Shown in pieces: positions 1-25,156 of a DNA stretch of 64,000 nucleotides. The notes below the pieces were generated by a model. The model worked only from the letters and a program-made list of their open reading frames with translations, was not told where the DNA came from and ran no database searches. How positions within the stretch are numbered: the stretch's first letter is position 1; the number at the start of each line of letters is the position of its first letter. The translations under genes were made by a program, and so were the position numbers. Origin of the DNA: an uncultured Desulfovibrionaceae bacterium (GTDB taxonomy: Bacteria; Desulfobacterota; Desulfovibrionia; Desulfovibrionales; Desulfovibrionaceae); assembly GCA_964609625.1 (NCBI GenBank), contig CAZSRS010000020.1, positions 584 to 64,583 on the forward strand. The letters are read 5' to 3'.

Positions 1-2445
1 CACGCCCAGGGTCTTTTCCCGGCCGCTTTCGTCCTCGCCGCGGACCACTATGGCCATCTCCCGGTCGTAGTCGATCTGTGTCAGCTTTTGCATCTCGGAG
101 CGCGGCAGCTCGCCGATGTTACCGAAAAAGCGGTAGCGCTTGTCCTCGGCGGAGACGTGCTCCAGGAATTCGTAATGGTCGGGTTCGTCCTCGGGGCGGA
201 TGGGACGGAGCAGCACCTTGCGGCCGTCCTTGAGTGTGGTGCACTCCTCCAGCTCCCGAGGGTAAGGGCGGATGGGCAGACGCTCCCCGATCTGGGTTGC
301 GTCGGCCTTGGCCACGAGGATTTCCGCGTCCAGGGCCAGGACCCCGGAGTCGTCGGCGTAGAGGGGGTTGATCTCCATCTCCAGGATTTCCGGGATGTCG
401 ATGATCAGCTGGGAAATCTTGACCAGGGTCAGGCAGAGGGCTTCCATATCCGCCGGGGGGTGGTCGCGGTAGCCCTTGAGCAGCGGATAGACCCTGGTGC
501 GGGAGACGAGTTCCTGGGCCAAGTGCATGTTCAGGGGGGGCATGGCCACGACACGCTCGGCCAGGACGGCGGCCAGACTGCCTCCCTGCCCGAAACGGAT
601 GGTGGGGCCGAAGACCGGGTCCGTGACCACTTCCACACTGAGTTCGTGGGCTCCGGCCAGTTTCACCATGCGCTGCACGGTGAAGCCGAGGAGTCGCGCG
701 TCGGGGCGAACCTCGCGGACGCGGGCCAGAATGCGCTGGGCCGCCTCGTGCACGTCCTCGGGGGTGTGCAGGCTCAGGGCCACACCGCCGGCCAGGGACT
801 TGCGCTGGATGTCCGGGGAGAGGATCTTCAGGGCCACGGGATAGCCCAGTTCGTCCGCCGCCTCCACCACGGCCTTGAGATCGTCTTCCAGGCGGGTGAC
901 CCGGGTGGCCACGGAGGGGATGTCGTAGGCCTTGAGCACCTCCATGGATTCGGTCTCGTCGAGCATCTGCCGCTTCTCGTGAAGTGCCGCGGCCACCACG
1001 CCCTTTGCCGCAAAGGTGTCGGGGTCGAAGTTCTCAGGCAAGGACGGGGGCGTTTGCATGAGCAGTTCCTGGTTGCGGCGGTACTGCACCAGGTTCAGGA
1101 ACCCGCGGATGGCCTTTTCCGGCGTGAAGTAGGTGGGCACGCCGGCGTCCGCGAACATGCCCCTGGCCTCCTCCGGGTCCTCGATGCCCATGAAGCTGGT
1201 GAGCACGTTGCGCTTGGTCTTTTTCGCGGCACGAACCACGGCTTGGGCTACTTCCCGGCTAGAGATGGCGGCCGTGGGCACGTGCATGACCAGTACGGCG
1301 TCCACGTCCTTGTCCTTGGTCAGGATGCCGATGCCCGTCTCGTACATTTCCGGAGGCGACACACTGCGGATGACCAGGGGATTGGCATAGGAAAAGGCAC
1401 CGCCGAGTTCCTTGTCCAGGGTCTTGAGGGTCTCCTGGGAGAGTTTGCTCAGTGCGCCCCCTCCGGCGATGAGCTCGTCCGAGGCCAGAAATCCGGGGCT
1501 GCCGCCGTTGGTCAGGATGGCCAGACGTCCGCCGATGAGTGGCCGGCTCCTGGCCAGGGTCTCCACGGTGTCGAAGAGTGTGTCCACGTCGAACACGCGC
1601 AGCATGCCGGAGCGACGGAAGGCGGCGTCGTAGACGTCGTCGGAGCCGAGCATGGCGGCGGAGTGCACGGCAGCGGCCAGGGCTCCGGGGCCGGAGCGAC
1701 CGGCCTTGATCACCAGCACGGGCTTGTTCCGGGCCAGGGCGCGCGCCGCGGACATGAAATGCCGGGCATGCAGGATGGTCTCGATGTACAACAGCACGGC
1801 CCGGGTATGCGGGTCGCGGTTGAGGTAGTCCATGGTGTGCCCCAGGCAGATATCCGCGCGGTCGCCCAGGGAGATGAAGTGGGAAAAGCCGATGCGCATG
1901 GAGCTGGCCCAGTCGAGCACCACGGTGAACAGGGAGTCGGACTGGGAGATGAAGGCCAGCTTGCCGGGCAGGGCGTCACGGTGCGCAAGGCTGGCGTTGA
2001 GCCCCACGTTGGGGCTGATGAAACCCAGGCAGTTGGGGCCGAGGATGCGCAACCCATGGGGGCGTGCGGCCTTGAGCAATTCCTTGTGATAGGCTTGGCG
2101 TTCCTCGGTGACCTTGCGGAACTGCCCCCTGCTGAGAATCACGGCCGCGCGGGTGCCGCGCTTGCCGAACTCGTCGATGAGCCGGGGGGTTTCTTTGGAG
2201 GAAGTACAGAGCACTGCCAGATCGGGCGTCAGGGGCAGGGTGTCCACGCTGCGGTAGCTCTCTGTGCCCATGATGGGCTCCTGCTCCTCGTGCAGGGGCA
2301 TGACCGGGCCCAGGAATTTGCCCTGGGTCAAGTTACGCATGATCACGTTGCCGGCTGTGCCTTCCTCGTTGCTGGCACCGGCCACGGCCACGGAGTTGGG
2401 TCTGAAGAGTTGTCGCAGGGTTTCGGCTTGCACCTGGGTCTCCAT
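1..2445 (-). CDS. Bifunctional ADP-forming acyl-CoA synthetase / GNAT protein acetyltransferase (Pat/YfiQ-like); 3-prime end runs off the window
   Basis: Own minus-strand translation from ATG at 2445: METQVQAETLRQLFRPNSVAVAGASNEEGTAGNVIMRNL...LGPNCLGFISPNVGLNAS...PVLVIKAGRS (CoA-binding / succinyl-CoA-ligase-like N-terminus). The last codons in the window, ...LRPIRPEDEPDHYEFLEHVSAEDKRYRFF...TQIDYDREMAIVV, look like a GNAT domain. There is no stop before position 1, so it is missing from the ORF track. The listed 88..2631 + ORF is its antisense shadow. Confidence 0.85.
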   Translation of the reverse strand, partial: METQVQAETLRQLFRPNSVAVAGASNEEGTAGNVIMRNLTQGKFLGPVMPLHEEQEPIMGTESYRSVDTLPLTPDLAVLCTSSKETPRLIDEFGKRGTRAAVILSRGQFRKVTEERQAYHKELLKAARPHGLRILGPNCLGFISPNVGLNASLAHRDALPGKLAFISQSDSLFTVVLDWASSMRIGFSHFISLGDRADICLGHTMDYLNRDPHTRAVLLYIETILHARHFMSAARALARNKPVLVIKAGRSGPGALAAAVHSAAMLGSDDVYDAAFRRSGMLRVFDVDTLFDTVETLARSRPLIGGRLAILTNGGSPGFLASDELIAGGGALSKLSQETLKTLDKELGGAFSYANPLVIRSVSPPEMYETGIGILTKDKDVDAVLVMHVPTAAISSREVAQAVVRAAKKTKRNVLTSFMGIEDPEEARGMFADAGVPTYFTPEKAIRGFLNLVQYRRNQELLMQTPPSLPENFDPDTFAAKGVVAAALHEKRQMLDETESMEVLKAYDIPSVATRVTRLEDDLKAVVEAADELGYPVALKILSPDIQRKSLAGGVALSLHTPEDVHEAAQRILARVREVRPDARLLGFTVQRMVKLAGAHELSVEVVTDPVFGPTIRFGQGGSLAAVLAERVVAMPPLNMHLAQELVSRTRVYPLLKGYRDHPPADMEALCLTLVKISQLIIDIPEILEMEINPLYADDSGVLALDAEILVAKADATQIGERLPIRPYPRELEECTTLKDGRKVLLRPIRPEDEPDHYEFLEHVSAEDKRYRFFGNIGELPRSEMQKLTQIDYDREMAIVVRGEDESGREKTLGV

Positions 2446-2502
2446 GATGACGTGCGGCCAAGTCGCACGGCAGCAACGTCAGGCCATGGTTATCACTGCC
2501 CA

Positions 2503-2631
2503 ATGCCGGGAAGTCAATGGGGAAATGCCGAGAGACATGCGGGAGCGCGGGTAGTGACGCATCCGTGTATTGGTGTATTGTCAGTTGGCTGGCGAATGTG
2601 CCTGACAACCAGCAAGGGAAGTGTGCCATGA
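2503..2631 (+). pseudogene. Decayed HigB-like (RelE-superfamily) toxin remnant upstream of higA
   Basis: The frame ending in TGA overlaps the higA ATG (ccATGa). It reads MPGSQWGNAERHAGARVVTHPCIGVLSVGWRMCLTTSKGSVP. This is collinear with the remembered HigB core PGN.LE.L.GDR.G..SIRIN.QWRICFRW. There is room for only about 42 to 60 codons before the divergent Pat-like gene, so it cannot be full length. Confidence 0.3.
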
Positions 2632-16187: not shown

Positions 16188-16715
16188 GTGACGGTGAAGG
16201 TGGAAGGCAACGCCGTGCTGGAGGCCATACGGCAACGTCGCAGCATCCGGAGGTTCACGGACGAGGACCTGCCTGACGACGCGATCAGGGCGATACTCGA
16301 GGCCGGCCGCTGGGCTCCCAGCGGCAAGAACAACCAGCCTTGCCGTTTCCTGGTGGTCAGGCGTGGCGATCCCAGGCAACAAGGGCTTGCCGCGTGCACA
16401 TCCTACAAGCGCATCGTTCTTGCCGCGGCAGTGAACTTAGCCGTGTTTCTGGACAAGGGCAGCATGTACCACGTCATGAAAGACCACCAGAGCGCCGGGG
16501 CCTGCATCCAGAACATGTTGCTGGCCGCGCACGCACTGGGCTACGGCGCTGTCTGGCTGGGGGAGATCTTCAACCAGGAACCCCAGGTCCACCAGGTCTT
16601 GGGCACGGACCCAGGCATGTATGCGTTCATGGCTTTGCTGGCCATGGGACGGCCTGCGGAAACGGGCCGTTCCACACGCATGGAACCTGGACGTTTTCTT
16701 CTGGAGGAATTCTGA
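16188..16715 (+). CDS. Nitroreductase-family flavoprotein
   Basis: AIRQRRSIRRFTDEDLPDDAIRAILEAGRWAPSGKNNQPCRFLVV is the classic nitroreductase N-terminus. The start is GTG 16188 or GTG 16194. Confidence 0.85.
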   Translation: MTVKVEGNAVLEAIRQRRSIRRFTDEDLPDDAIRAILEAGRWAPSGKNNQPCRFLVVRRGDPRQQGLAACTSYKRIVLAAAVNLAVFLDKGSMYHVMKDHQSAGACIQNMLLAAHALGYGAVWLGEIFNQEPQVHQVLGTDPGMYAFMALLAMGRPAETGRSTRMEPGRFLLEEF

Positions 16716-17341
16716 TGCAGGTCAGTGTGTTTCCCCTCGGTGCCCTGGAGACCAACTGTTTCCTGGCCAGCCTGGATGGCAAGGCCGTGGTGGTCGATCC
16801 AGGGGGCGATCCCGCACCCCTCCTCGATGTGTTAAAGCGCGAAAACCTGACGTTGACGCACATTCTGAATACGCATCTGCATTTCGATCACATCTTCGGC
16901 AATGCGTCCCTGCACGAGGCCACGGGTGCGCCTATCCTGGCCAACAAGGAAGACGACTACCTGATGCAGTCCGAACTTGGCAGGGGTGGTCTCTGGGGGC
17001 TCCCCCTGGTGGAGACGTTCACCTACACGCACCTGGAACCCGGCGACACCGAGCTTTTGGGCGTTCTCTGCAAGGTCCTGCACACGCCGGGGCATTCTCC
17101 AGGCAGCCTGACCTTCTATTTCCCGGATTTCAAGGTAGCCTTTGTCGGGGATCTGATCTTCTGGCGTTCCGTCGGCCGGACGGACTTTCCAGGCGGGAGT
17201 CACGAAGTCCTGCTGCGTTCGGTCATGGACAAGATTTTCACCCTGCCCGACGACGTGAGGCTCTACAGTGGGCATGGTCCATCGACCAACGTGGGTGACG
17301 AAAAGCTGCACAATCCGTTTTTCACCGAGTATCGGCGCTGA
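16715..17341 (+). CDS. MBL-fold metallo-hydrolase (glyoxalase II / persulfide-dioxygenase-like size class)
   Basis: HxHxDH motif NTHLHFDHIFGN, then HTPGHSPGS and GRTDFPGGS. ATG 16715 overlaps the upstream TGA (TGATG), indicating translational coupling. Confidence 0.9.
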   Translation: MQVSVFPLGALETNCFLASLDGKAVVVDPGGDPAPLLDVLKRENLTLTHILNTHLHFDHIFGNASLHEATGAPILANKEDDYLMQSELGRGGLWGLPLVETFTYTHLEPGDTELLGVLCKVLHTPGHSPGSLTFYFPDFKVAFVGDLIFWRSVGRTDFPGGSHEVLLRSVMDKIFTLPDDVRLYSGHGPSTNVGDEKLHNPFFTEYRR

Positions 17342-17364
17342 ACGGGAGGGAGAGGTATACGGCC

Positions 17365-17592
17365 ATGGTCCAGGAGATCGACGGTCGCATCGACTTCACT
17401 GCCACCTGCTGACGCCTGCTCGAGGAGATCCGGTGGCATCTCCGTTTCAATGGCAGGGACCGTCTGGAAATGCTCCTGCGCAAGGACGCGCTGCCCGTGG
17501 CTCGCGAGGCTCTTTTTCTGGAGCCGGGCTGGCGGCTTGAGGAGTCGGAACACCAAGGCCTGGTTTTGGCCACATTCACGAGGGGGGCGTAA
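17365..17592 (+). CDS. Candidate selenoprotein, TusA/SirA-like, 75 aa with in-frame UGA (Sec) at codon 16
   Basis: GGAGGGAGAGG Shine-Dalgarno; ATG 17365; MVQEIDGRIDFTATC-[TGA 17410]-RLLEEIRWHLRFNGRDRLEMLLRKDALPVAREALFLEPGWRLEESEHQGLVLATFTRGA; TAA 17590. It exactly fills the gap between two coupled genes. A SECIS-like hairpin lies 11 nt after the TGA. The I-D-x-x-A-x-x-U spacing matches the TusA L-D-x-x-G-x-x-C site. Confidence 0.5.
17424..17443 (+). promoter_or_regulatory. SECIS-like stem-loop downstream of the in-frame UGA
   Basis: GGAGAU-CCGGUGGC-AUCUCC: perfect 6-bp stem starting 11 nt after the UGA. The loop GGU sits at +23..+25 from the U of UGA. Two further C:G pairs are possible inside the loop, which would leave a GGU triloop. 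Confidence 0.45.
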
Positions 17593-17601
17593 AGGAGTCT
17601 G

Positions 17602-18279
17602 TTGGTGGACTTTTTTGATCCAGGATCAACGACCAAGGCTGTCATCTTCGCGTGCAGCCCCCGTGCGTCCGGCAATTCCGACACCGCGGCCAGACTCATC
17701 GCCAAGGGCATTGCCCAGGCCGGCGGACAGAGCCAACTGGTGACCCTGCGCCAGTACCGCGTGAGTCCCTGCCTCGGGTGTCGCCGGTGCGAGTACGACC
17801 CCAATCGCCAGTGCTTCCAAGCCAGGGACGATCAGTCCGGCCCCCTGTTCCAGACCCTGCTTTCAGCGCCGTTGGTATTCTTTGTCTCGCCCATCTATTT
17901 CTACCACCTGCCCGCAGGCTTCAAGGGCTTTATCGACCGAGGACAAAGCTTCTACCTGCGCATGTTGGACAAGGACCCCGAGTTGATGGCTCTGCGGGAG
18001 AGAAAGGCCCACGTCTGTCTCGTTGCCGGACGCACTCAGGGAGAACAGCTCTTTGGCGGCAGCCTGCTTACCCTGCGCTATTTTCTGCAGCCTTTCCGAC
18101 TGGAACTCTCCGAACCCCTGCTCTTGCGCGGCCTTGACGAGGCCCAGGACCTGCAAGGCAGGCCCGCCTATCATGACCAGTTGCTTGGCTTGGGCAGAAC
18201 GGCTTGGCAGGAGGTGGCCGCGACCGTGACGGCGATCCAGGCAAAGACCAACGCGACCAGCCTGACGTCTGGGGAGTGA
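17602..18279 (+). CDS. Flavodoxin-fold NAD(P)H-dependent FMN reductase, iron-sulfur flavoprotein (Isf)-like
   Basis: AVIFACSPRASGNSD...; compact Cys motif CLGCRRCEYDPNRQC (CX2CX2CX7C); PLVFFVSPIYFYHLPAGFKGFIDR. AAAGGAG Shine-Dalgarno; TTG 17602 or GTG 17605 start. Confidence 0.8.
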   Translation: MVDFFDPGSTTKAVIFACSPRASGNSDTAARLIAKGIAQAGGQSQLVTLRQYRVSPCLGCRRCEYDPNRQCFQARDDQSGPLFQTLLSAPLVFFVSPIYFYHLPAGFKGFIDRGQSFYLRMLDKDPELMALRERKAHVCLVAGRTQGEQLFGGSLLTLRYFLQPFRLELSEPLLLRGLDEAQDLQGRPAYHDQLLGLGRTAWQEVAATVTAIQAKTNATSLTSGE

Positions 18280-19103
18280 TGGGTTTTCCTTCCGAAAGTG
18301 CGGCCCGGCGCCCCTCCCTGTTCAGGGCTGTAACCAGCGCGGCACGCTCCCTGGGCTTGTTGGAGAGGCGCTGCCTGCTTTGCGGCGTTGCCGTCCCACC
18401 AGAAGACGCGGCCAAGGGGAGCGTTCCGGCAGCGGGTCTCTGCCCCGAATGCTGCCAAACGCTCCGCCCCAGGCTGGGGGGGTATTGCCCCGTGTGCGGC
18501 GCCATGGGTCAGGACGAACTCGCGCGGCAGAGCCTTTGCGGCGAGTGTCGCCGACGCTCCCTGGGCAGGAATCCCACTTTGCCCTGGAGCGGTCTTATGT
18601 TTTACGCCCCCTATGCCGGGGTACTGCGGGAGTGTATATTGGCCTTCAAGCTCAACGGACGGATAGATCTCGGCACTCTCTTGCAGCGTCTGGTACTGCG
18701 CTGTTGGGAGTTGCGCTCGCAACTGCCGGAGCACGCGGGCTGGAGGCCGGACATGGTCACGCCCGTGCCCCTGTATCCCGGCAAGTTGCGGCGCAGGGGA
18801 TTCAACCAGAGTCAGGAACTGGCCCGCCCCCTGGCTGGGAGGTTGGGAGTGCCGCTGGAGCACGGGGCACTGGTGCGCTTGCGTGATACCTTCCCCCAGT
18901 TCAGACTGCGCCACGGCCAACGCGCCGACAACATCAAGGGCGCCTTTGCCAGCCCGGCACGGATTGTGGCGAAGAAAAGGATACTCCTGGTGGACGACAT
19001 CATGACAACGGGCGCCACCCTGGTGGAGTGCTGCCGCACCTTGCACGCCGAGGGGGCGCGGGAAGTGCGCGTGCTCGTGCTCGCGCGCACCCCGGAGGAG
19101 TGA
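18279..19103 (+). CDS. comF: ComF-family protein (phosphoribosyltransferase domain)
   Basis: N-terminal Cys-rich region (CLLCG...CPECC...CPVCG...CGEC) and C-terminal PRTase loop ILLVDDIMTTGATL. The ATG overlaps the upstream TGA. Confidence 0.85.
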   Translation: MGFPSESAARRPSLFRAVTSAARSLGLLERRCLLCGVAVPPEDAAKGSVPAAGLCPECCQTLRPRLGGYCPVCGAMGQDELARQSLCGECRRRSLGRNPTLPWSGLMFYAPYAGVLRECILAFKLNGRIDLGTLLQRLVLRCWELRSQLPEHAGWRPDMVTPVPLYPGKLRRRGFNQSQELARPLAGRLGVPLEHGALVRLRDTFPQFRLRHGQRADNIKGAFASPARIVAKKRILLVDDIMTTGATLVECCRTLHAEGAREVRVLVLARTPEE

Positions 19104-20638: not shown

Positions 20639-20875
20639 GTGGCGGTTTCCCTGACACGTGTATGTGTTTCCGACGTACAGTATCCCTGAACGCCGGGGTA
20701 TTCCTATTCCCAGGGATTCCTGCTCTACACCCAGTGGACGGGGCGTGCAAGGTCTGATCGCTGTTGCCGCTCTCCGCTGTTGCACGGAACAATGAATCTG
20801 GCTACAATGACGGTAATGGATGCAAAACCGTCAATAGACCCATCTTCTTGCTTTTCCATGGAAAACGGTAACACT

Positions 20876-23800
20876 ATGAAACGGATTGCTGGTTTCGACC
20901 TCGGTTCCGTCAGTGTCAAATTCGTGGTGCTCGACGCTGGTGGCAAGTTGTTGGAATCATCCTATGTCCGGCATCACGGCCGCCCATTGGATGCGGCCCT
21001 GCCACTGCTGTCCGATCTGATCGACCGCCACGGCCCCCTTCCCCTGGCAGTGACCGGCTCCTCGGGCAAGCTCCTGGCCGATGGGCTCGGGGTCCCGCAG
21101 ATCAACGAACTGGTCGCCCTGGCACAGGCCATGCGCGCCTGGCATCCCGAAGTGCACACCGTGATGGAAATGGGCGGGGAGGATGCCAAGCTCCTGCTCC
21201 TGGAAGACGGGGCGGTACGGGACTTTGCGCTCAATTCCGTGTGCGCCGCGGGCACCGGTTCCTTCCTGGACCAGCAGGCCGAGCGCATGCGGTTATCCAT
21301 CGAGGAATTCGCCGACTTGGCCATGCAGAGCGCCAACCCGCCGCGCATCGCGGGACGCTGCAGCGTGTTCGCCAAGTCGGATATGATCCACCTGCAACAG
21401 ATCGCCACGCCGCTGCATGATATCGTGGCTGGGTTGTGCTTTGCCGTGGCCCGGAACTTCAAGGGCTCCATCCTGCGCAACCGCGGCCTGCTCCCCGAAG
21501 TGGCCTTTCTGGGGGGCGTGGCCTTGAACCGCGGCGTGGTGCGCGCCTTTCGCGAGGAGTTCCAACTGCCGGAGCTGCGTATCCCAGATCCCCCGACCAT
21601 CTGGACGGCTGCCGGCGCGGCCCTGAAGCTGGCGGAAATGGCGGCGCGGCCCGTTCTTGTTGACACCGGGGCAATCAGTCGTCTGGAAATGGGGCGCGAG
21701 GCCGGCGCCATTCCCAGGCGCGGCAGCCTGCTGTCCAGTGGTGACCGCTTTCTGGAACGTCACGCGGTACGTCCCTGCGGGGAAGAGGAAAATTGGCGGG
21801 AAACCGACGCTCCTCCGCCGCGTGCGGCCTACATGGGTGTGGACATCGGCTCCATCAGCACCTGTCTGGCGGTGGTGGATCAGGACGGTCGCCTCGTGGC
21901 CAGGCGTTATCTGCGCACCGCCAGCCGCCCCATCGAGGCCGTGCGCCAAGGGCTCAGGGAATTGCGCGAGGAACTCGGCGAGGACCTGCCCATCCGCGGC
22001 GTGGGCACCACGGGCTCCGGCCGCTACATGATCGCCGACTGCATCGGCGCCGACCTGGTGAAGAACGAGATCACCGCCCAGGCCAGGGGCGCCGTGAGCC
22101 TGGACCAGCTCCTGGGCGGAGCGGGAGTGGATACGGTTTTCGAGATCGGCGGGCAGGACTCCAAATTCATCCGACTCCATGACGGGATTATCGTGGATTT
22201 CGAGATGAACAAGGCCTGCGCCGCCGGCACCGGCTCCTTCCTGGAGGAGCAGGCTGAGAAGCTGGACATCCCCATCAAGGACGAGTTCGCGGCACTGGCA
22301 CTGGAGGCCGAGGCTCCCTGCGCCCTGGGCGAGCGCTGCACCGTGTTCATGGAAAACTCCCTGATGCACGGTCTCCAGAAAGGCGCGGACAAGTCCGATC
22401 TCCTGGCCGGACTGTCCTATTCCATCGTGGAAAACTACATCAACCGGGTGGTGGCCGGCCGCAACATCGGGGAGAAGATCTTCTTTCAGGGCGGCACGGC
22501 CTGCAATACGGCCGTGGTGGCCGCTTTCGAGAAGTACCTGGGGCGGGAGATCACCGTGCCCCCGTACAATGACGTCTCCGGCGCCATCGGCATGGCCCTG
22601 CTGGCCAGGGAACACATGACCGGCCCCAACGCCGGCGCGCCTTCCGCTTTCAAGGGCTTTAGCGTGGCAGACAGGGACTACGAGCAGAGTTCCTTCGAGT
22701 GCAACGGCTGCGACAACCGTTGCGAGATCAACAAGGTGCGCTTTGCCGGGGAATCCACCGTCCTGCACTATGGGGGGCGTTGCGAGAAGTACGACATCCG
22801 CCGCACGGCCGGCAAGCATCTGCCAGACCTCTTCGCCCTGCGTGAAAAGGCCCTGGAGCGCACCCACACGGCCTACGTAGCGGAGCGAGGAGGCCGTCCG
22901 GCTCGGCACGGCGTCATCGGCCTGCCCCGCGTCTTTTTCATGCACGACCTCCTCCCGTTCTACAGCACCCTGCTCTGGGAGCTGGGATTCGAGGTCATGC
23001 TCTCGCCACGCACCGACCACCGCGTGGCCGGTCTGGGCGTGCAGGCCACATTGGCCGAGACCTGCTACCCGGTGAAGGCTGCCCTGGGGCACGTGCGTTG
23101 GCTCTTCGAACAGGGTGTGGAGCGCGTGTTTCTGCCCAGCTTCGTCAATGTGGCGGCCAAGGGCTCGGGCAAGAGCTCCCTGGGCTGCCCCTTGACGCAG
23201 AGCTTCCCCTACCTGGCGCGTCAAGCCTTGGTAGGCGCTGGGCGGGAGATCGTGGCTCCGGTGATCCAACTGGCCGATCCAGTTGCCTCGCGCCATCTTT
23301 CGTTGCTACGCCATGTGACAGCGCTCGGCGTCAACCCTCTGGCCCTGCACCAGGCCATGCTCAGGGCCGAGGAAGCGCAGCGCACCTTTCAGCGGGAGAT
23401 TCAGGAAGCTGGGCGCACCACCCTGGCCTCCCTGGACGAACTGTACGGTCAGGGTGTGGAGCGCGCCCTGGTGGTGGTGGGCAGGGCCTACAATGCCTTT
23501 GATTCGGGCATGAATCTCGGTGTTCCACGCAAGCTGGCCACCCTGAACACTTTGGCCATTCCCATGGATTTTCTGCCCCTCGACGACCTGGCGGAGGAAA
23601 TCGGACAGGACTGGCCGGACATGTACTGGCGCTCGGGGCAACGCATGCTCCAGGCTGCCAGGTGCATCGCCAGGGGCCCTGCCTTCAGCCGGCTGCACGC
23701 CCTGATCATCGGCAGCTTTTCCTGCGGTCCGGACTCCTTCATTCTGGAGTATTTCCATCGCGAGATGGGTGACAAACCCTACCTGCACATCGAGATCGAC

Positions 23801-25156
23801 GAACACAGCGCCGACGCTGGCGTGATCACCAGGCTGGAGGCCTTCCTGGACAGCCTGGCCATGCGGTCCGAGACCGAAGCCCACGGTGTGGCGAAGGGAA
23901 GCAAGCCGCGTTATGCGCACCACGTGTCAAGGGCACAGCGCATCGTCTACATCCCGCGCATGGGCGACCAGGCCCTGGGCATGCGCGCCGCCTTCGAGGC
24001 CGCGGGCGTGGAGGCCGTGGTCATGCCCCCAACGGACAAGGAGGCCCTGGCCCTGGCCATGCGCTATGTCTCGGGCAAGGAATGCTTCCCCTTTGCCGTG
24101 ACCTTGGCGGACATGCTCAAGGTGGCCGGCTCTCCGGACTTCGACCCGCGACGCGCGGCGTTTTTCATGCCCGCCGGCGGCGGTCCCTGTCGTTTCGGAC
24201 AATACAACCTGCTGCAAAAGATCATCATGGAGCGTGCTGGGTACCCGGACGTGCAAATCATCTCTCCCATGCAGGACAGCGCATTCTACCATGACCTGGG
24301 CATGATGGGGGGGAATTTCGCCCGCGACTCCTGGAAAGGCTTGGTGGCCCTGGACCTGCTGGTGAAGATGCTGCACGAGACGCGCCCCTACGAGCGAAAC
24401 ACGGGGGACGCCGACGCCCTCTACGCCCAGGCCCTGGGAGAAATCCCTCCCCTGGTCTCCAAGGATCTGGAGGTCCTGGCCTCGGCCCTGGAGCGTTACG
24501 CCCGCGATTTCAACGCCCTCCGGTACAACGGGGAGCGCAAGCCCCGCGTGGGCATCGTGGGTGAAATCTTCGTGCGCACCAACACCTTCTCCAACGAGGA
24601 CCTGGTACGGCAGGTGGAGGGGCTTGGAGGCGAGGCCTGGCTGGCCAGCGTGGACGAGTGGATCTACTACGTGAACTGGGAGTCGTTGCGCAATGCCATC
24701 AAGCGCCGTGAATTGCGCAGGATGTTTCAGGTGGGGCTGAACAACTACTTTCAGCGCAAGATCGGCCATGCCCTGGAGCGTGGCATGAACGGCGTCTACA
24801 AGAGCATCCACGACCCGGACGCCAAGACGCTGCTGCGCAAGGCCGCCCCGTATCTGCACCACTCCTTCCGGGGCGAGGCCGTGCTCAGCGTGGGCAAGTC
24901 CCTGGACATGCTCGAACGCGGGGCCCAGGGCATTGTCCTGGCCATGCCCTTCGGCTGCATGCCCGGCACCGTGGCCACGGCCCTGCTGCGCGGCGTCTGC
25001 CGGGAGCACGACGCTCCCTTGTGTTCCATACCCTTCGACGGCACGGCCTCGCCCACCACGCGCCTGCAATTGGAGACCTTCATGGAGCAGGCCGCGGTAC
25101 GTGCCAAGAAGATGGGGGGGCGGACGCCTCCTCCCGGCGTCACTCCTGAACGGTGA
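20876..25156 (+). CDS. Fused double BcrAD/BadFG-type ATPase (radical-enzyme activase) plus 2-hydroxyacyl-CoA-dehydratase-like (DUF2229/HgdB-type) domains, 1,427 aa
   Basis: Two actin-fold ATPase modules (MKRIAGFDLGSVSVKFVVLD...NSVCAAGTGSFLD; AAYMGVDIGSISTCLAVVD...NKACAAGTGSFLEEQ) are followed by about 800 aa with CYPVK, SFSCGPDSF and GGGPCRFGQYN blocks, typical of the dehydratase-component family. Confidence 0.9.
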   Translation: MKRIAGFDLGSVSVKFVVLDAGGKLLESSYVRHHGRPLDAALPLLSDLIDRHGPLPLAVTGSSGKLLADGLGVPQINELVALAQAMRAWHPEVHTVMEMGGEDAKLLLLEDGAVRDFALNSVCAAGTGSFLDQQAERMRLSIEEFADLAMQSANPPRIAGRCSVFAKSDMIHLQQIATPLHDIVAGLCFAVARNFKGSILRNRGLLPEVAFLGGVALNRGVVRAFREEFQLPELRIPDPPTIWTAAGAALKLAEMAARPVLVDTGAISRLEMGREAGAIPRRGSLLSSGDRFLERHAVRPCGEEENWRETDAPPPRAAYMGVDIGSISTCLAVVDQDGRLVARRYLRTASRPIEAVRQGLRELREELGEDLPIRGVGTTGSGRYMIADCIGADLVKNEITAQARGAVSLDQLLGGAGVDTVFEIGGQDSKFIRLHDGIIVDFEMNKACAAGTGSFLEEQAEKLDIPIKDEFAALALEAEAPCALGERCTVFMENSLMHGLQKGADKSDLLAGLSYSIVENYINRVVAGRNIGEKIFFQGGTACNTAVVAAFEKYLGREITVPPYNDVSGAIGMALLAREHMTGPNAGAPSAFKGFSVADRDYEQSSFECNGCDNRCEINKVRFAGESTVLHYGGRCEKYDIRRTAGKHLPDLFALREKALERTHTAYVAERGGRPARHGVIGLPRVFFMHDLLPFYSTLLWELGFEVMLSPRTDHRVAGLGVQATLAETCYPVKAALGHVRWLFEQGVERVFLPSFVNVAAKGSGKSSLGCPLTQSFPYLARQALVGAGREIVAPVIQLADPVASRHLSLLRHVTALGVNPLALHQAMLRAEEAQRTFQREIQEAGRTTLASLDELYGQGVERALVVVGRAYNAFDSGMNLGVPRKLATLNTLAIPMDFLPLDDLAEEIGQDWPDMYWRSGQRMLQAARCIARGPAFSRLHALIIGSFSCGPDSFILEYFHREMGDKPYLHIEIDEHSADAGVITRLEAFLDSLAMRSETEAHGVAKGSKPRYAHHVSRAQRIVYIPRMGDQALGMRAAFEAAGVEAVVMPPTDKEALALAMRYVSGKECFPFAVTLADMLKVAGSPDFDPRRAAFFMPAGGGPCRFGQYNLLQKIIMERAGYPDVQIISPMQDSAFYHDLGMMGGNFARDSWKGLVALDLLVKMLHETRPYERNTGDADALYAQALGEIPPLVSKDLEVLASALERYARDFNALRYNGERKPRVGIVGEIFVRTNTFSNEDLVRQVEGLGGEAWLASVDEWIYYVNWESLRNAIKRRELRRMFQVGLNNYFQRKIGHALERGMNGVYKSIHDPDAKTLLRKAAPYLHHSFRGEAVLSVGKSLDMLERGAQGIVLAMPFGCMPGTVATALLRGVCREHDAPLCSIPFDGTASPTTRLQLETFMEQAAVRAKKMGGRTPPPGVTPER

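What the first reader, a model, noticed from the sequence alone, without database searches (positions are those of the whole stretch)
17365..17592. Hidden 75-codon ORF with in-frame UGA and SECIS-like hairpin: candidate TusA-like selenoprotein
One reading frame exactly fills the 260-nt gap between the MBL-fold hydrolase (stop 17339-17341) and the flavoprotein gene.
- Frame: GGAGGGAGAGG Shine-Dalgarno, ATG 17365, 15 sense codons (MVQEIDGRIDFTATC), TGA at 17410-17412, then 59 more sense codons (RLLEEIRWHLRFNGRDRLEMLLRKDALPVAREALFLEPGWRLEESEHQGLVLATFTRGA).
- It ends at TAA 17590-17592, inside the AAAGGAG ribosome-binding site of the next gene.
- GC-rich third positions continue on both sides of the TGA.
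- Exactly 11 nt after the TGA there is a perfect 6-bp hairpin, GGAGAU / AUCUCC (17424-17429 / 17438-17443), with loop CCGGUGGC. The loop GGU lies at +23 to +25 from the U of UGA. As I recall, this is the geometry of the E. coli fdhF SECIS: upper stem-loop 11 nt downstream, G23/U24 in the loop.
- The context I-D-x-x-A-x-x-U reproduces the spacing of the TusA/SirA active site (L-D-x-x-G-x-x-C-P in E. coli TusA).
- The length (75 versus 81 aa) and the C-terminal pattern (PGWRLEESEHQG..LATFTR versus MEHELVAKETDG..RYLIRK) fit the same fold. Sec would therefore replace the persulfide-carrying Cys, with a neighbouring Cys giving a C-U dyad.

The TGA splits the frame below the 60-aa cut-off, so gene callers and the ORF track miss it. 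I cannot tell from here whether Sec-containing TusA homologues are already catalogued.
Basis: partly seen in the sequence, partly recalled or inferred. Interest (0 to 1): 0.8.

Follow-up and report, generated by a model that had tools for sequence, protein, structure and literature searches.

The report
Unannotated small selenoprotein gene, TusA-like fold
The 260-base "gap" holds a real 75-codon selenoprotein gene (Cys-Sec pair, UGA plus a SECIS hairpin) that is conserved across Desulfovibrio-type sulfate reducers, appears in every database checked only as a truncated "hypothetical protein", and is absent from the selenoprotein catalogues I checked.

Summary
On one sequence it is not beyond chance: the window has 139 comparable read-through ORFs, 21 with a SECIS-like hairpin.

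Comparative data settle it:
- All 21 distinct orthologous loci checked keep Cys-TGA at the same codon. These include Pseudodesulfovibrio indicus CP014206.1 and a D. ferrophilus-type contig.
- Codon-periodic conservation continues on both sides of the TGA.
- A hairpin 11 nt downstream (GGAGRU/AYCUCC, mostly loop GGUUGG) fits the published bacterial SECIS rules.
- Several loci have no start codon after the TGA that would keep the conserved helix.

Database searches:
- Profile searches of 5.8 billion and 1.84 billion proteins found only fragments that begin just after the TGA.
- They also found one weak Cys homologue.
- There is no Pfam, NCBIfam or PDB sequence match.
- Nothing like it appears in a 2026 table of 119 selenoprotein families.

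The TusA idea is only partly supported. An AlphaFold model gives the same beta-alpha-beta-alpha-beta-beta order with Sec before helix 1. Its best two-way structural match is a SirA-like protein (TM about 0.7, E 0.024). PF01206 and hhalign find no homology, and the CPxP signature is missing.

The gene sits in a conserved cluster, coupled to an Isf-type iron-sulfur flavoprotein. A redox or chalcogen-relay role is inferred, not shown.

The parts
17344..17355 (+). Shine-Dalgarno-like GGGAGGGAGAGG, ending 9 nt before the ATG
   Evidence: Read directly from the sequence. Orthologues also have a purine-rich stretch before their ATG.
17365..17592 (+). Complete selenoprotein gene: 75 codons (15 sense codons, UGA=Sec, 59 sense codons) plus the TAA stop
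   Evidence: Orthologous ORFs lie in the same position in 21 distinct loci. Codon-position entropy shows coding periodicity on both sides of the TGA.
17407..17412 (+). Cys-Sec dyad: TGC (Cys15) followed by TGA (Sec16)
   Evidence: Cys and TGA are invariant in all orthologues. The Cys codon varies synonymously between TGC and TGT.
17424..17443 (+). SECIS hairpin: stem GGAGAU/AUCUCC. In the minimum-energy fold of the window sequence, two further C-G pairs leave a GGU apical loop.
   Evidence: The hairpin is conserved at the same distance in all loci. Stem pair 5 is G-U in 9, G-C in 6 and A-U in 3 loci, never mismatched. Synonymous sites in the stem codons are frozen. It meets the bacterial SECIS rules quoted in PMC13188914.
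17413..17589 (+). Post-Sec domain of 59 aa: helix 1, strand, helix 2, strand, strand
   Evidence: AlphaFold2 with a 75-sequence alignment gives mean pLDDT 96.1. This is the only part of the protein present in public databases.
17590..17597 (+). TAA stop embedded in the AAGGAG ribosome-binding site of the next gene (translational coupling)
   Evidence: In P. indicus and D. ferrophilus-type loci the two genes overlap by 4 nt.
16194..16715 (+). Nitroreductase-family gene, first gene of the conserved cluster. Its stop overlaps the MBL start.
   Evidence: Pfam PF00881, E 5e-29. Gene call on identical DNA. Synteny.
16715..17341 (+). MBL-fold (glyoxalase-II-like) hydrolase gene
   Evidence: Pfam PF00753, E 1e-29. 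NCBIfam matches are all below cut-off: GloB 86 bits, Blh sulfur transferase/dioxygenase 71 bits. Synteny.
17605..18279 (+). Isf-type iron-sulfur flavoprotein gene (FMN_red fold with an invariant CX2CX2CX7-11C motif), immediately downstream
   Evidence: Pfam PF03358 and PF02525. The Cys motif is invariant in 15 orthologues. The compact ISF motif is described in PMC3164229. This is the tightest linkage: it persists where an insertion separates the MBL gene.
18204..19103 (+). ComF/GntX-like phosphoribosyltransferase gene, last conserved gene of the cluster. These are the coordinates of the longest ORF; the true start is probably further downstream.
   Evidence: Pfam PF00156. NCBIfam ComF and GntX, both below cut-off. 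Synteny.

Best explanation
Window 17365-17592 is a genuine, expressed-as-one-polypeptide selenoprotein gene. The UGA at 17410-17412 is decoded as selenocysteine by SelB and tRNA-Sec, directed by the hairpin that starts 11 nt downstream. The product is a protein of about 8 kDa.

Its only conserved reactive residues are an adjacent Cys-Sec pair. The pair sits in the loop between strand 1 and the N-terminus of helix 1 of a beta-alpha-beta-alpha-beta-beta sandwich. That is the position the catalytic Cys occupies in TusA/SirA proteins.

The protein founds a family of its own. The named members are all Desulfovibrionales, nearly every member has Sec, and no profile library recognises it.

Inferred, not shown:
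- The Cys-Sec pair cycles between a selenolthiol and a selenenylsulfide.
- It serves as a redox or chalcogen (S/Se) relay for the translationally coupled Isf-type iron-sulfur flavoprotein.
- This takes place within a conserved cluster: nitroreductase, MBL, selenoprotein, Isf, ComF-like.
For: Shown:
1. TGA lies at the identical codon, always preceded by Cys, in all 21 distinct loci read. These are 10 genome loci, 8 distinct metagenome loci, L094, P. indicus CP014206.1 and a D. ferrophilus-type contig.
2. The motif (I/L)D(L/I)RxKC-U-GVGxEVGWYLRF spans the TGA. Entropy at codon positions 1/2/3 is 0.81/0.34/1.41 upstream and 0.70/0.28/0.96 downstream. The Asp and Cys codons vary only synonymously.
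3. In 6 of 19 loci the first in-frame start after the TGA is 17 or more codons downstream. Starting there would delete the most conserved helix.
4. TGA is an ordinary stop elsewhere in the same DNA: it ends the MBL gene at 17339-17341.
5. The hairpin is conserved. Of 7 pairs, 96 % of cells are paired. Pair 5 shows G-U, G-C and A-U with no mismatch. L002 loses two basal pairs and gains two apical pairs. Glu GAG and Leu CUC are frozen in the stem. MFE is -9.2 kcal/mol for the core hairpin and -13.6 to -19.3 kcal/mol for the nine 46-nt segments folded from the TGA. The loop is GGUUGG or GGU, 18-19 nt after the UGA. This meets the rules in PMC13188914.
6. All 138 hits in 5.8 billion proteins, and 79 of 81 hits in 1.84 billion representatives, are fragments that start at or after the Sec codon. 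One hit reads TGA as W.
7. AlphaFold gives pLDDT 96 for the post-Sec domain and 86 for a full-length member, with Sec two residues before helix 1.
8. The gene cluster is conserved and the gene overlaps the Isf gene.
Against: - Sec-decoding genes (selA, selB, selC, selD) could not be looked for in the source genome. None lies in the window.
- There is no expression, 75Se or proteomic evidence.
- Covariation in the hairpin is limited to two pairs. It is confounded by the encoded E-V/I-G-W-Y/H-L-R peptide and by phylogeny.
- The full-length model used W at the Sec position, and only two sequences cover the N-terminus.
- The functional part rests only on gene neighbourhood and motif analogy.
- The window's own clade has C-U-R-L-L rather than C-U-G-x-G.
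Confidence: 0.85

Rival explanations
1. The protein is a true but very divergent member of the TusA/SirA (UPF0033) family. Sec replaces the persulfide-carrying Cys, so it acts as a sulfur or selenium (perselenide) carrier that hands the chalcogen to a partner enzyme.
For: - The spacing from the invariant Asp to the reactive residue is the same: D-x5-U versus D-x5-C.
- The secondary-structure order is the same, with the reactive residue at the start of helix 1.
- SirA-like 3hz7 is the best two-way structural match: TMq 0.67, TMt 0.70, rmsd 2.5 A. By sequence, 3hz7 is a UPF0033 protein.
- The rare Cys homologue reads IDLTGVSCGLIP, closer to the TusA motif LDxxGxxCPxP.
- The TusA relative YedF is named by NCBI as a selenium-metabolism protein.
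Against: - PF01206 gives no hit at E<=1 for 10 members, and none at E<=10 for P0188 or P0153.
- hhalign of 19 full-length members against about 100 TusA/YedF sequences gives probability 0.3 %, E 0.22.
- A profile search of PDB sequences finds no TusA.
- The CPxP signature and the conserved Gly are absent.
- The Foldseek E-value is 0.024. IF3-C, PrmA N-domain, Tdp2 and Alba folds score similarly. E. coli TusA and YedF are not in the top 50.
- No cysteine desulfurase, rhodanese, DsrE or Tus partner lies in the cluster.
Confidence: 0.3
2. The Cys-Sec pair is a soft-metal or metalloid ligand (Hg, As, Cu, organometals), as proposed for other CU-motif selenoproteins. On this reading the protein is a metallochaperone or detoxification component, not a redox relay.
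For: - Several catalogued CU-motif selenoproteins are linked to metals: SaoL, SaoC, HgcA, MbdU and a CopZ-like form.
- The protein is small and has a single reactive site.
- The neighbouring genes look like detoxification genes: nitroreductase and MBL.
Against: - No metal transporter, mer, ars or cop gene lies in the conserved cluster.
- None of the NCBIfam models for those families matches.
- The tightest linkage is to an electron-transfer flavoprotein.
Confidence: 0.12
3. UGA is a real stop. A leader peptide of 13-20 residues is made, and the hairpin regulates the downstream genes by attenuation or coupling. The downstream reading frame is either translated separately or not at all.
For: - Gene callers do find start codons right after the TGA in many species: GTG at +2 or ATG at +4.
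- On its own, the single-sequence hairpin is not unusually stable.
Against: - In 6 of 19 loci, including the window, no start codon exists within 17-37 codons after the TGA. The conserved helix could not then be made.
- The Cys immediately before the TGA and the Asp six residues before the Sec codon are invariant with synonymous variation. That is protein-level selection tied to the downstream domain.
- In the model, strand 1 (upstream of the TGA) is predicted with pLDDT above 90.
- The stop is always TGA, never TAA or TAG, in all 21 distinct loci.
Confidence: 0.04
4. UGA is read through by a near-cognate or suppressor tRNA as Trp, Cys or Gly. The product is full length but contains no selenium.
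For: One database entry (P0153) shows W at this position.
Against: - P0153's DNA has TGA, so the W is an artefact of the gene caller's genetic code.
- TGA terminates neighbouring genes in the same DNA.
- A SECIS-type hairpin at the canonical distance is conserved.
- Desulfovibrio and Salidesulfovibrio species are documented Sec users.
Confidence: 0.03

Closest known systems
TusA/SirA (UPF0033, PF01206) sulfur-carrier proteins, e.g. E. coli TusA (1DCJ) and the SirA-like protein DSY4693 (3HZ7)
   Same: - Size is similar: about 75-80 aa.
- The secondary-structure order is beta-alpha-beta-alpha-beta-beta.
- An invariant Asp in strand 1 lies six residues before the reactive chalcogen residue, which sits at the N-terminus of helix 1.
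- 3HZ7 is the best two-way Foldseek match, with TM about 0.7.
   Different: - No sequence homology is detectable by Pfam, hhalign or a PDB sequence profile.
- U-G-x-G or U-R-L-L replaces C-P-x-P.
- An extra Cys sits directly before the reactive residue.
- The reactive residue is Sec in essentially all members.
- The genomic partners differ: an Isf flavoprotein rather than IscS, Tus, Dsr or YeeE.
C-terminal Gly-Cys-Sec-Gly redox centre of mammalian thioredoxin reductase (from established knowledge, not tested here)
   Same: - A vicinal Cys-Sec is followed by Gly: K-C-U-G in 16 of 19 members.
- The protein is genomically coupled to a flavoprotein that could reduce a selenenylsulfide.
   Different: - Here the dyad is near the N-terminus of a separate small protein, not on the flexible tail of the flavoenzyme.
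- The flavoprotein is an FMN/4Fe-4S Isf type, not an FAD pyridine-nucleotide disulfide oxidoreductase.
- The window's own protein has C-U-R.
- This is pure analogy.
Catalogued CU-motif bacterial selenoproteins: SaoL, SaoC, HgcA, MbdU, the Csac_0668 2Fe-2S protein and the KCU-star/DUF466 family (PMC13188914 Table 1; bioRxiv 10.1101/2022.07.06.499078)
   Same: - They have an adjacent Cys-Sec dipeptide.
- SaoL, for one, is described as typically truncated in databases at the CU site.
- They occur in anaerobes.
   Different: - None of their NCBIfam or Pfam models matches this family at E<=1.
- The fold and the gene context differ.
- KCU-star proteins, as the family name indicates, end at the Sec, whereas here 59 residues follow it.
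Glycine reductase selenoprotein A (GrdA)
   Same: It is a small selenoprotein long regarded as lacking Cys homologues (PMC12013277). This family likewise shows only one weak Cys homologue among more than 130 clusters.
   Different: - The sequence is unrelated.
- GrdA has a CxxU motif.
- GrdA is part of a well-characterised enzyme complex.
E. coli fdhF-type bacterial SECIS
   Same: - The hairpin lies inside the coding region and starts 11 nt after the UGA.
- The apical loop has G at +23 and U at +24 in most orthologues. In the window it is G23, G24, U25.
   Different: - There is no bulged U17 equivalent.
- The stem is shorter, 6-8 bp.
- The fdhF numbering is recalled from the literature, not tested here.

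Membership tests
Bacterial selenoprotein gene (UGA recoded by a SECIS element) | In-frame UGA conserved at the same codon in orthologues, never replaced by another stop | tested here: met
   TGA is present in all 21 distinct loci read.
Bacterial selenoprotein gene (UGA recoded by a SECIS element) | Protein-coding conservation continues on both sides of the UGA in one frame | tested here: met
   The motif (I/L)D(L/I)RxKC-U-GVGxEVGWYLRF spans the UGA. Entropy at codon positions 1/2/3 is 0.81/0.34/1.41 upstream and 0.70/0.28/0.96 downstream.
Bacterial selenoprotein gene (UGA recoded by a SECIS element) | [quoted passage not shown] | tested here: met
   In the window there are 6+2 bp, a GGU loop 19 nt after the UGA, and MFE -9.2 kcal/mol. 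Most orthologues have 7-8 bp and a GGUUGG loop 18 nt after the UGA. Each of the seven orthologous UGA hairpins folded, together with the window's 46-nt segment, reaches -13.6 to -19.3 kcal/mol.
Bacterial selenoprotein gene (UGA recoded by a SECIS element) | Covariation supporting the hairpin | tested here: inconclusive
   One pair shows G-U, G-C and A-U with no mismatch. One pair shows A-U, G-C and G-U with 3 mismatches. The other five pairs are invariant or nearly so. The signal is confounded by the peptide encoded there and by phylogeny.
Bacterial selenoprotein gene (UGA recoded by a SECIS element) | selA, selB, selC (tRNA-Sec) and selD present in the same genome | not testable with these tools
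   Only a 64-kb window is available. It has no tRNA or Rfam hit and no sel gene among the ORFs scanned. Related genera are documented Sec users.
Bacterial selenoprotein gene (UGA recoded by a SECIS element) | Cys-containing homologues aligning Cys with Sec | tested here: inconclusive
   There is one weak hit, P0188 (E 2.8e-4, TGC codon, on a 682-bp contig). All other hits are cut at the TGA.
TusA/SirA family (PF01206, UPF0033) | Significant match to the family profile | tested here: not met
   No PF01206 hit at E<=1 for 10 members, and none at E<=10 for P0188 or P0153. No NCBIfam hit.
TusA/SirA family (PF01206, UPF0033) | Profile-profile similarity to a TusA/YedF alignment | tested here: not met
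   hhalign gives probability 0.3 % and E 0.22. With Sec written as X, nothing aligns.
TusA/SirA family (PF01206, UPF0033) | Signature D-x2-G-x2-C-P-x-P | tested here: not met
   The Asp and the spacing to the reactive residue are kept. The Gly is variable, and C-P-x-P is replaced by U-G-x-G or U-R-L-L.
TusA/SirA family (PF01206, UPF0033) | Beta-alpha-beta-alpha-beta-beta two-layer sandwich with the reactive residue at the N-terminus of helix 1 | tested here: met
   The AlphaFold model has strand 12-15, Cys-Sec at 20-21, helix 23-33, strand 38-43, helix 45-56 and strands 61-67 and 72-78. 3hz7 matches with TMq 0.67 and TMt 0.70. The E-value of 0.024 is not significant, and the fold is shared with IF3-C-like domains.
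TusA/SirA family (PF01206, UPF0033) | Carries a persulfide and works with a desulfurase, rhodanese, DsrE/Tus or YeeE partner | not testable with these tools
   This needs biochemistry. No such partner gene lies in the conserved cluster.
Catalogued CU-motif selenoprotein families (SaoL, SaoC, HgcA, MbdU, KCU-star and others) | Match to the family's NCBIfam or Pfam model | tested here: not met
   NCBIfam release 20.0 and Pfam give no hit at E<=1 for 10 members. The models are listed in PMC13188914 Table 1.

The most novel reading that the evidence does not exclude
This would be a selenoprotein family that is effectively obligate for Sec, with essentially no Cys counterparts. [quoted passage not shown] Its TusA-fold scaffold would present a vicinal Cys-Sec selenenylsulfide as a free-standing equivalent of the GCUG tail of thioredoxin reductase. 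An Isf-type Fe-S flavoprotein would reduce it. Together they would form a previously unknown two-component, selenium-dependent reductase or peroxidase, or a selenium-specific relay, in sulfate-reducing bacteria.
Probability: 0.2. Interest if true: 0.8.

Novelty: new member of a known kind. Interest (0 to 1): 0.62.

Why it matters
- It adds a selenoprotein family that does not appear in a 2026 inventory of 119 families or in NCBI's naming models. It is mis-annotated as a truncated "hypothetical protein" in every public record seen, for example WP_066801859.1, WP_015414581.1 and WP_172961803.1.
- It shows a blind spot of current predictors. Methods that require Cys homologues filter out families like this one (PMC12013277).
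- It would be the first Sec protein on a TusA-like scaffold. That links the TusA-type active-site geometry to selenium.
- It gives an uncharacterised but widely conserved Desulfovibrionales gene cluster (nitroreductase, MBL, selenoprotein, Isf) a candidate reactive centre.
- It occurs in cultured, genetically tractable strains, so it can be tested directly.

Tried and rejected
1. A single-sequence search of 5.8 billion proteins with U changed to C found nothing. Only the profile built from orthologues found the family.
2. Pfam, NCBIfam and a PDB sequence profile gave no meaningful hits on full-length members. The weak DUF3747, AHJR-like and DUF1841 hits, and the PHR1 PDB hit, were dismissed as noise.
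3. Rfam and ARAGORN found nothing in the window. Rfam returned no match at the hairpin, so it gives no test of the SECIS.
I worked around this with the post-Sec fragment and with P0153, a full-length member miscalled with W.
5. Foldseek on the fragment gave only generic IF3-C-like matches, with SirA-like at rank 41. I rejected this as proof of TusA homology.
6. hhalign against TusA/YedF was negative.
7. I considered that P0153 ("CW") might be a natural Trp variant. Its DNA has TGA, so this was rejected.
8. I considered that the 1.1-1.3 kb between the MBL and Sec genes in Desulfonatronovibrio loci might hold a functional partner. In L011 it encodes what looks, from its sequence, like an unrelated glycosyltransferase (not scanned against Pfam). 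L009 was not examined.
9. I looked for sel genes among about 30 large ORFs of the window and found none. This is uninformative for a 64-kb piece.
10. Literature checks for a prior report found none.
Full report
**1. The observation**

- A purine-rich Shine-Dalgarno stretch lies at 17344-17355, and the ATG at 17365.
- Fifteen sense codons follow (MVQEIDGRIDFTATC), then TGA at 17410-17412.
- Fifty-nine further sense codons follow, then TAA at 17590-17592, inside the TAAAGGAG that precedes the flavoprotein start.
- The 6-bp stem GGAGAT (17424-17429) / ATCTCC (17438-17443) begins 11 nt after the TGA. GGT lies at +23 to +25.
- GC3 is 0.87 before and 0.76 after the TGA, equal to the flanking genes at 0.75-0.76.
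- The mechanical ORF list shows only the 40-aa tail, 17470-17592. Public gene calls on identical metagenome contigs call the same 40-aa piece.

Taken alone, this pattern is not beyond chance.
- The window contains 139 ORFs of the form ATG, at least 10 codons, TGA, at least 40 codons.
- Under lax rules, 21 of them carry a SECIS-like hairpin of 6 bp or more.
- The hairpin's folding energy is unremarkable against shuffles, with z from -0.6 to -1.5.

**2. Comparative evidence that the gene is real**

I scanned one genome per species with the upstream MBL protein. This returned 12 Desulfovibrionales loci.
- In nine of them tblastn finds the candidate protein between the MBL and flavoprotein genes. 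Identity is 23-69 %, and in eight of the nine the alignment spans the TGA position.
- In-frame translation shows a stop at the same codon in every one, preceded by Cys, with conservation on both sides.
- The stop is TGA in all of them.

Further loci agree.
- A metagenome scan added 12 loci, 8 of them distinct, all with DxRxKC-TGA-GVGxEVGWYLR.
- The same holds in L094.
- It holds in the complete genome of Pseudodesulfovibrio indicus (CP014206.1) and in a D. ferrophilus-type contig.
- That makes 21 distinct loci. None has TAA, TAG or a sense codon at this position.

Across 19 aligned loci the substitution pattern is that of one coding frame.
- Entropy at codon positions 1/2/3 is 0.81/0.34/1.41 for the seven codons before the TGA.
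- It is 0.70/0.28/0.96 for the 14 codons after it.
- The invariant Asp and Cys codons vary only synonymously (GAC/GAT, TGC/TGT).
- In six loci, including the window, the first in-frame start after the TGA lies 17-37 codons downstream. Independent initiation there would delete the most conserved segment, E-(V/I)-x-W-(Y/H)-L-R.

TGA is an ordinary stop in the same DNA: it ends the MBL gene. A reassigned genetic code is therefore excluded.

**3. The hairpin**

The stem is present at the same columns in all 18 aligned loci.
- 96 % of cells are paired.
- Pair 5 is G-U in nine loci, G-C in six and A-U in three, never a mismatch.
- The closing pair is A-U in ten, G-C in three and G-U in two, with three mismatches.
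- L002 loses the two basal pairs but gains two apical ones.

Synonymous positions inside the stem are frozen. Glu is always GAG, Leu is almost always CUC, and the third base of codon +4 is always G. This is what an overlapping RNA constraint produces.

The structure meets the published bacterial SECIS model (PMC13188914).
- The stem is 6-8 bp.
- The apical loop is GGUUGG, or GGU in the window's minimum-energy fold, so it begins with G.
- The loop starts 18-19 nt after the UGA.
- MFE is -9.2 kcal/mol for the window core. The nine 46-nt segments folded from the TGA, the window's and eight orthologues', give -13.6 to -19.3 kcal/mol.

In most orthologues the loop has G at +23 and U at +24. From memory, that is the fdhF arrangement.

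The covariation is modest and is confounded by the encoded peptide and by relatedness. I count it as consistent rather than decisive.

**4. What the databases hold**

- The window protein alone, with U changed to C, finds nothing among 5.8 billion proteins.
- A profile of ten orthologues finds 138 proteins. All are 55-76 aa "hypothetical proteins" with no Pfam domain.
- They come from Pseudodesulfovibrio, Maridesulfovibrio, Desulfonatronovibrio, Salidesulfovibrio, Desulfocurvus and D. ferrophilus.
- All 74 of these sequences that I read begin MGLEVGWYLRF, MEVGWYLRF or similar, that is, just after the TGA.

An exhaustive HMM search of 1.84 billion representatives gives 81 hits.
- 79 are fragments that start at or after the Sec codon.
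- One, P0153, is full length with "CW". Its DNA has TGA, so the W is a genetic-code artefact.
- One weak hit, P0188 (E 2.8e-4, on a 682-bp contig), has Cys (TGC) at the Sec position and no hairpin.

RefSeq examples are WP_066801859.1, WP_015414581.1, WP_156900683.1, WP_045216207.1, WP_172961803.1, WP_084458259.1 and WP_054651917.1. All are named hypothetical protein.

**5. Is it already known?**

- Pfam, NCBIfam release 20.0 (June 2026) and a PDB sequence profile give no hit for ten full-length members.
- The May 2026 review PMC13188914 tabulates 119 prokaryotic selenoprotein families, each with a Pfam, NCBIfam or CDD identifier.
- That table has no TusA/SirA entry, and none of the listed models matches this family.
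- The deep-Sep paper analysed a Salidesulfovibrio genome and reported no new selenoprotein (PMC12013277).
- A family that is almost entirely Sec would therefore be missed by design.
- Earlier stop-codon and metagenome surveys do not describe it.

I conclude that it is uncatalogued. I leave about 15 % for a mention in literature I could not search.

**6. Fold, and the TusA question**

The post-Sec 59 residues, with a 75-sequence alignment, fold with pLDDT 96.1 as helix-strand-helix-strand-strand. Foldseek on this fragment gave only generic IF3-C-like matches.

P0153 is a full-length member, with W at the Sec position and only two sequences covering the N-terminus. It folds with pLDDT 85.9.
- Strand 12-15, then Cys-Sec at 20-21.
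- Helix 23-33, strand 38-43, helix 45-56.
- Strands 61-67 and 72-78.

This is the TusA order of elements, with Sec at the helix-1 N-terminus. As in TusA, it lies six residues after an invariant Asp.

Against the PDB, the SirA-like protein 3hz7 is rank 3 and has the best two-way TM-scores: 0.67 and 0.70, rmsd 2.5 A. 3hz7 is a UPF0033 member by sequence.

However:
- The Foldseek E-value of 0.024 is not significant.
- IF3-C, PrmA N-domain, Tdp2 and Alba folds score nearly as well.
- E. coli TusA and YedF are not in the top 50.
- hhalign of 19 full-length members against about 100 TusA/YedF sequences gives probability 0.3 %.
- The invariant C-P-x-P of TusA is U-G-x-G or U-R-L-L here.

So it works like, or at least is shaped like, a TusA. 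Membership of the family is not supported.

**7. Context and mechanism**

The gene is the third of a conserved cluster: nitroreductase, MBL-fold hydrolase, selenoprotein, flavoprotein, ComF-like phosphoribosyltransferase.

The tightest link is to the flavoprotein.
- The selenoprotein's stop lies in the flavoprotein's ribosome-binding site, or overlaps its start by 4 nt.
- In Desulfonatronovibrio loci a 1.1-1.3 kb stretch separates the MBL gene from the selenoprotein gene. The selenoprotein gene stays directly upstream of the flavoprotein.

The flavoprotein has an invariant CX2CX2CX7-11C motif. This resembles the compact 4Fe-4S motif of iron-sulfur flavoproteins, Isf (PMC3164229).

Shown:
- The protein has one conserved reactive centre, the vicinal Cys-Sec.
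- In 16 of 19 members the context is K-C-U-G.

Inferred:
- The pair cycles between a selenolthiol and a selenenylsulfide. The GCUG end of thioredoxin reductase does this (established knowledge).
- It exchanges electrons, or a chalcogen atom, with the Isf protein.
- A sulfur or selenium relay in the TusA manner, and soft-metal binding as proposed for other CU selenoproteins, remain live alternatives.

**8. What could not be done**

- The source genome is a metagenome assembly (Logan, SRR30684747 and related runs). It could not be searched for selA, selB, selC or selD.
- The window contains no tRNA, no Rfam hit and no sel gene among about 30 ORFs scanned.
- Desulfovibrio and Salidesulfovibrio are documented Sec users, so the trait is expected.
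- No expression or selenium-labelling data exist.

**9. Verdict**

- The finding is real and the selenoprotein call is right. My confidence is about 0.85-0.9.
- The "TusA-like" label holds for fold and geometry only.
- It is a new, apparently uncatalogued selenoprotein family of standard decoding mechanism, hence "new member of a known kind".
- Three points make it notable: the near-absence of Cys homologues, the TusA-type scaffold, and the coupling to an Isf flavoprotein.
- Interest is 0.62.

Noticed in passing
L093:313-555 (protein P0188): This is the only Cys-containing homologue found (IDLTGVSCGLIPQIGANLR, TGC codon). It has no GGAG/CUCC hairpin at the position seen in the UGA-containing loci. 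It sits on a 682-bp, low-coverage contig with a different upstream neighbour. It may be a relic of the Cys ancestor or a separate branch.
   Followed up: partly
L094:82-321 (protein P0153): A public gene call reads the family's TGA as Trp ("CW"), evidently because a code with TGA=Trp was applied. Such miscalls are a handy way to find full-length versions of hidden selenoproteins in protein databases.
   Followed up: yes
L011:1966-3093 and L009:910-2020: In Desulfonatronovibrio loci, 1.1-1.3 kb separates the MBL gene from the selenoprotein gene. In L011 this holds a 375-aa ORF that looks like a glycosyltransferase. The L009 stretch was not examined. In both loci the selenoprotein gene stays directly upstream of the flavoprotein gene.
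   Followed up: partly
window 16712-16715 and 17590-17605: The cluster genes are tightly packed. The nitroreductase stop overlaps the MBL start (ATGA), and the selenoprotein stop lies in the flavoprotein's ribosome-binding site. This suggests one operon with translational coupling.
   Followed up: partly
window 20780-25156 (+): A 1458-aa ORF carries BadF/BcrA-type ATPase and DUF2229 (CoA-enzyme activase) domains. The three long ORFs on the opposite strand (21293-25069) have no Pfam match and are probably shadows of it.
   Followed up: partly
window 88-2631 (+): An 847-aa ORF has no Pfam family at E<=1e-5. I did not establish whether it is a real gene or a shadow ORF.
   Followed up: no
window 39372-63894: The second half of the window is a large polysaccharide-synthesis region. 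It holds several GT1/GT4 glycosyltransferases, a sugar transferase, a MurJ-like flippase, a Wzy-like ligase and a GNAT. It is unrelated to the finding.
   Followed up: no
window-wide: Under lax rules, 21 ORFs in the window have an internal TGA plus a SECIS-like hairpin of 6 bp or more. Apart from the one studied here, none was checked against orthologues, so another hidden selenoprotein gene in the window is not excluded.
   Followed up: no
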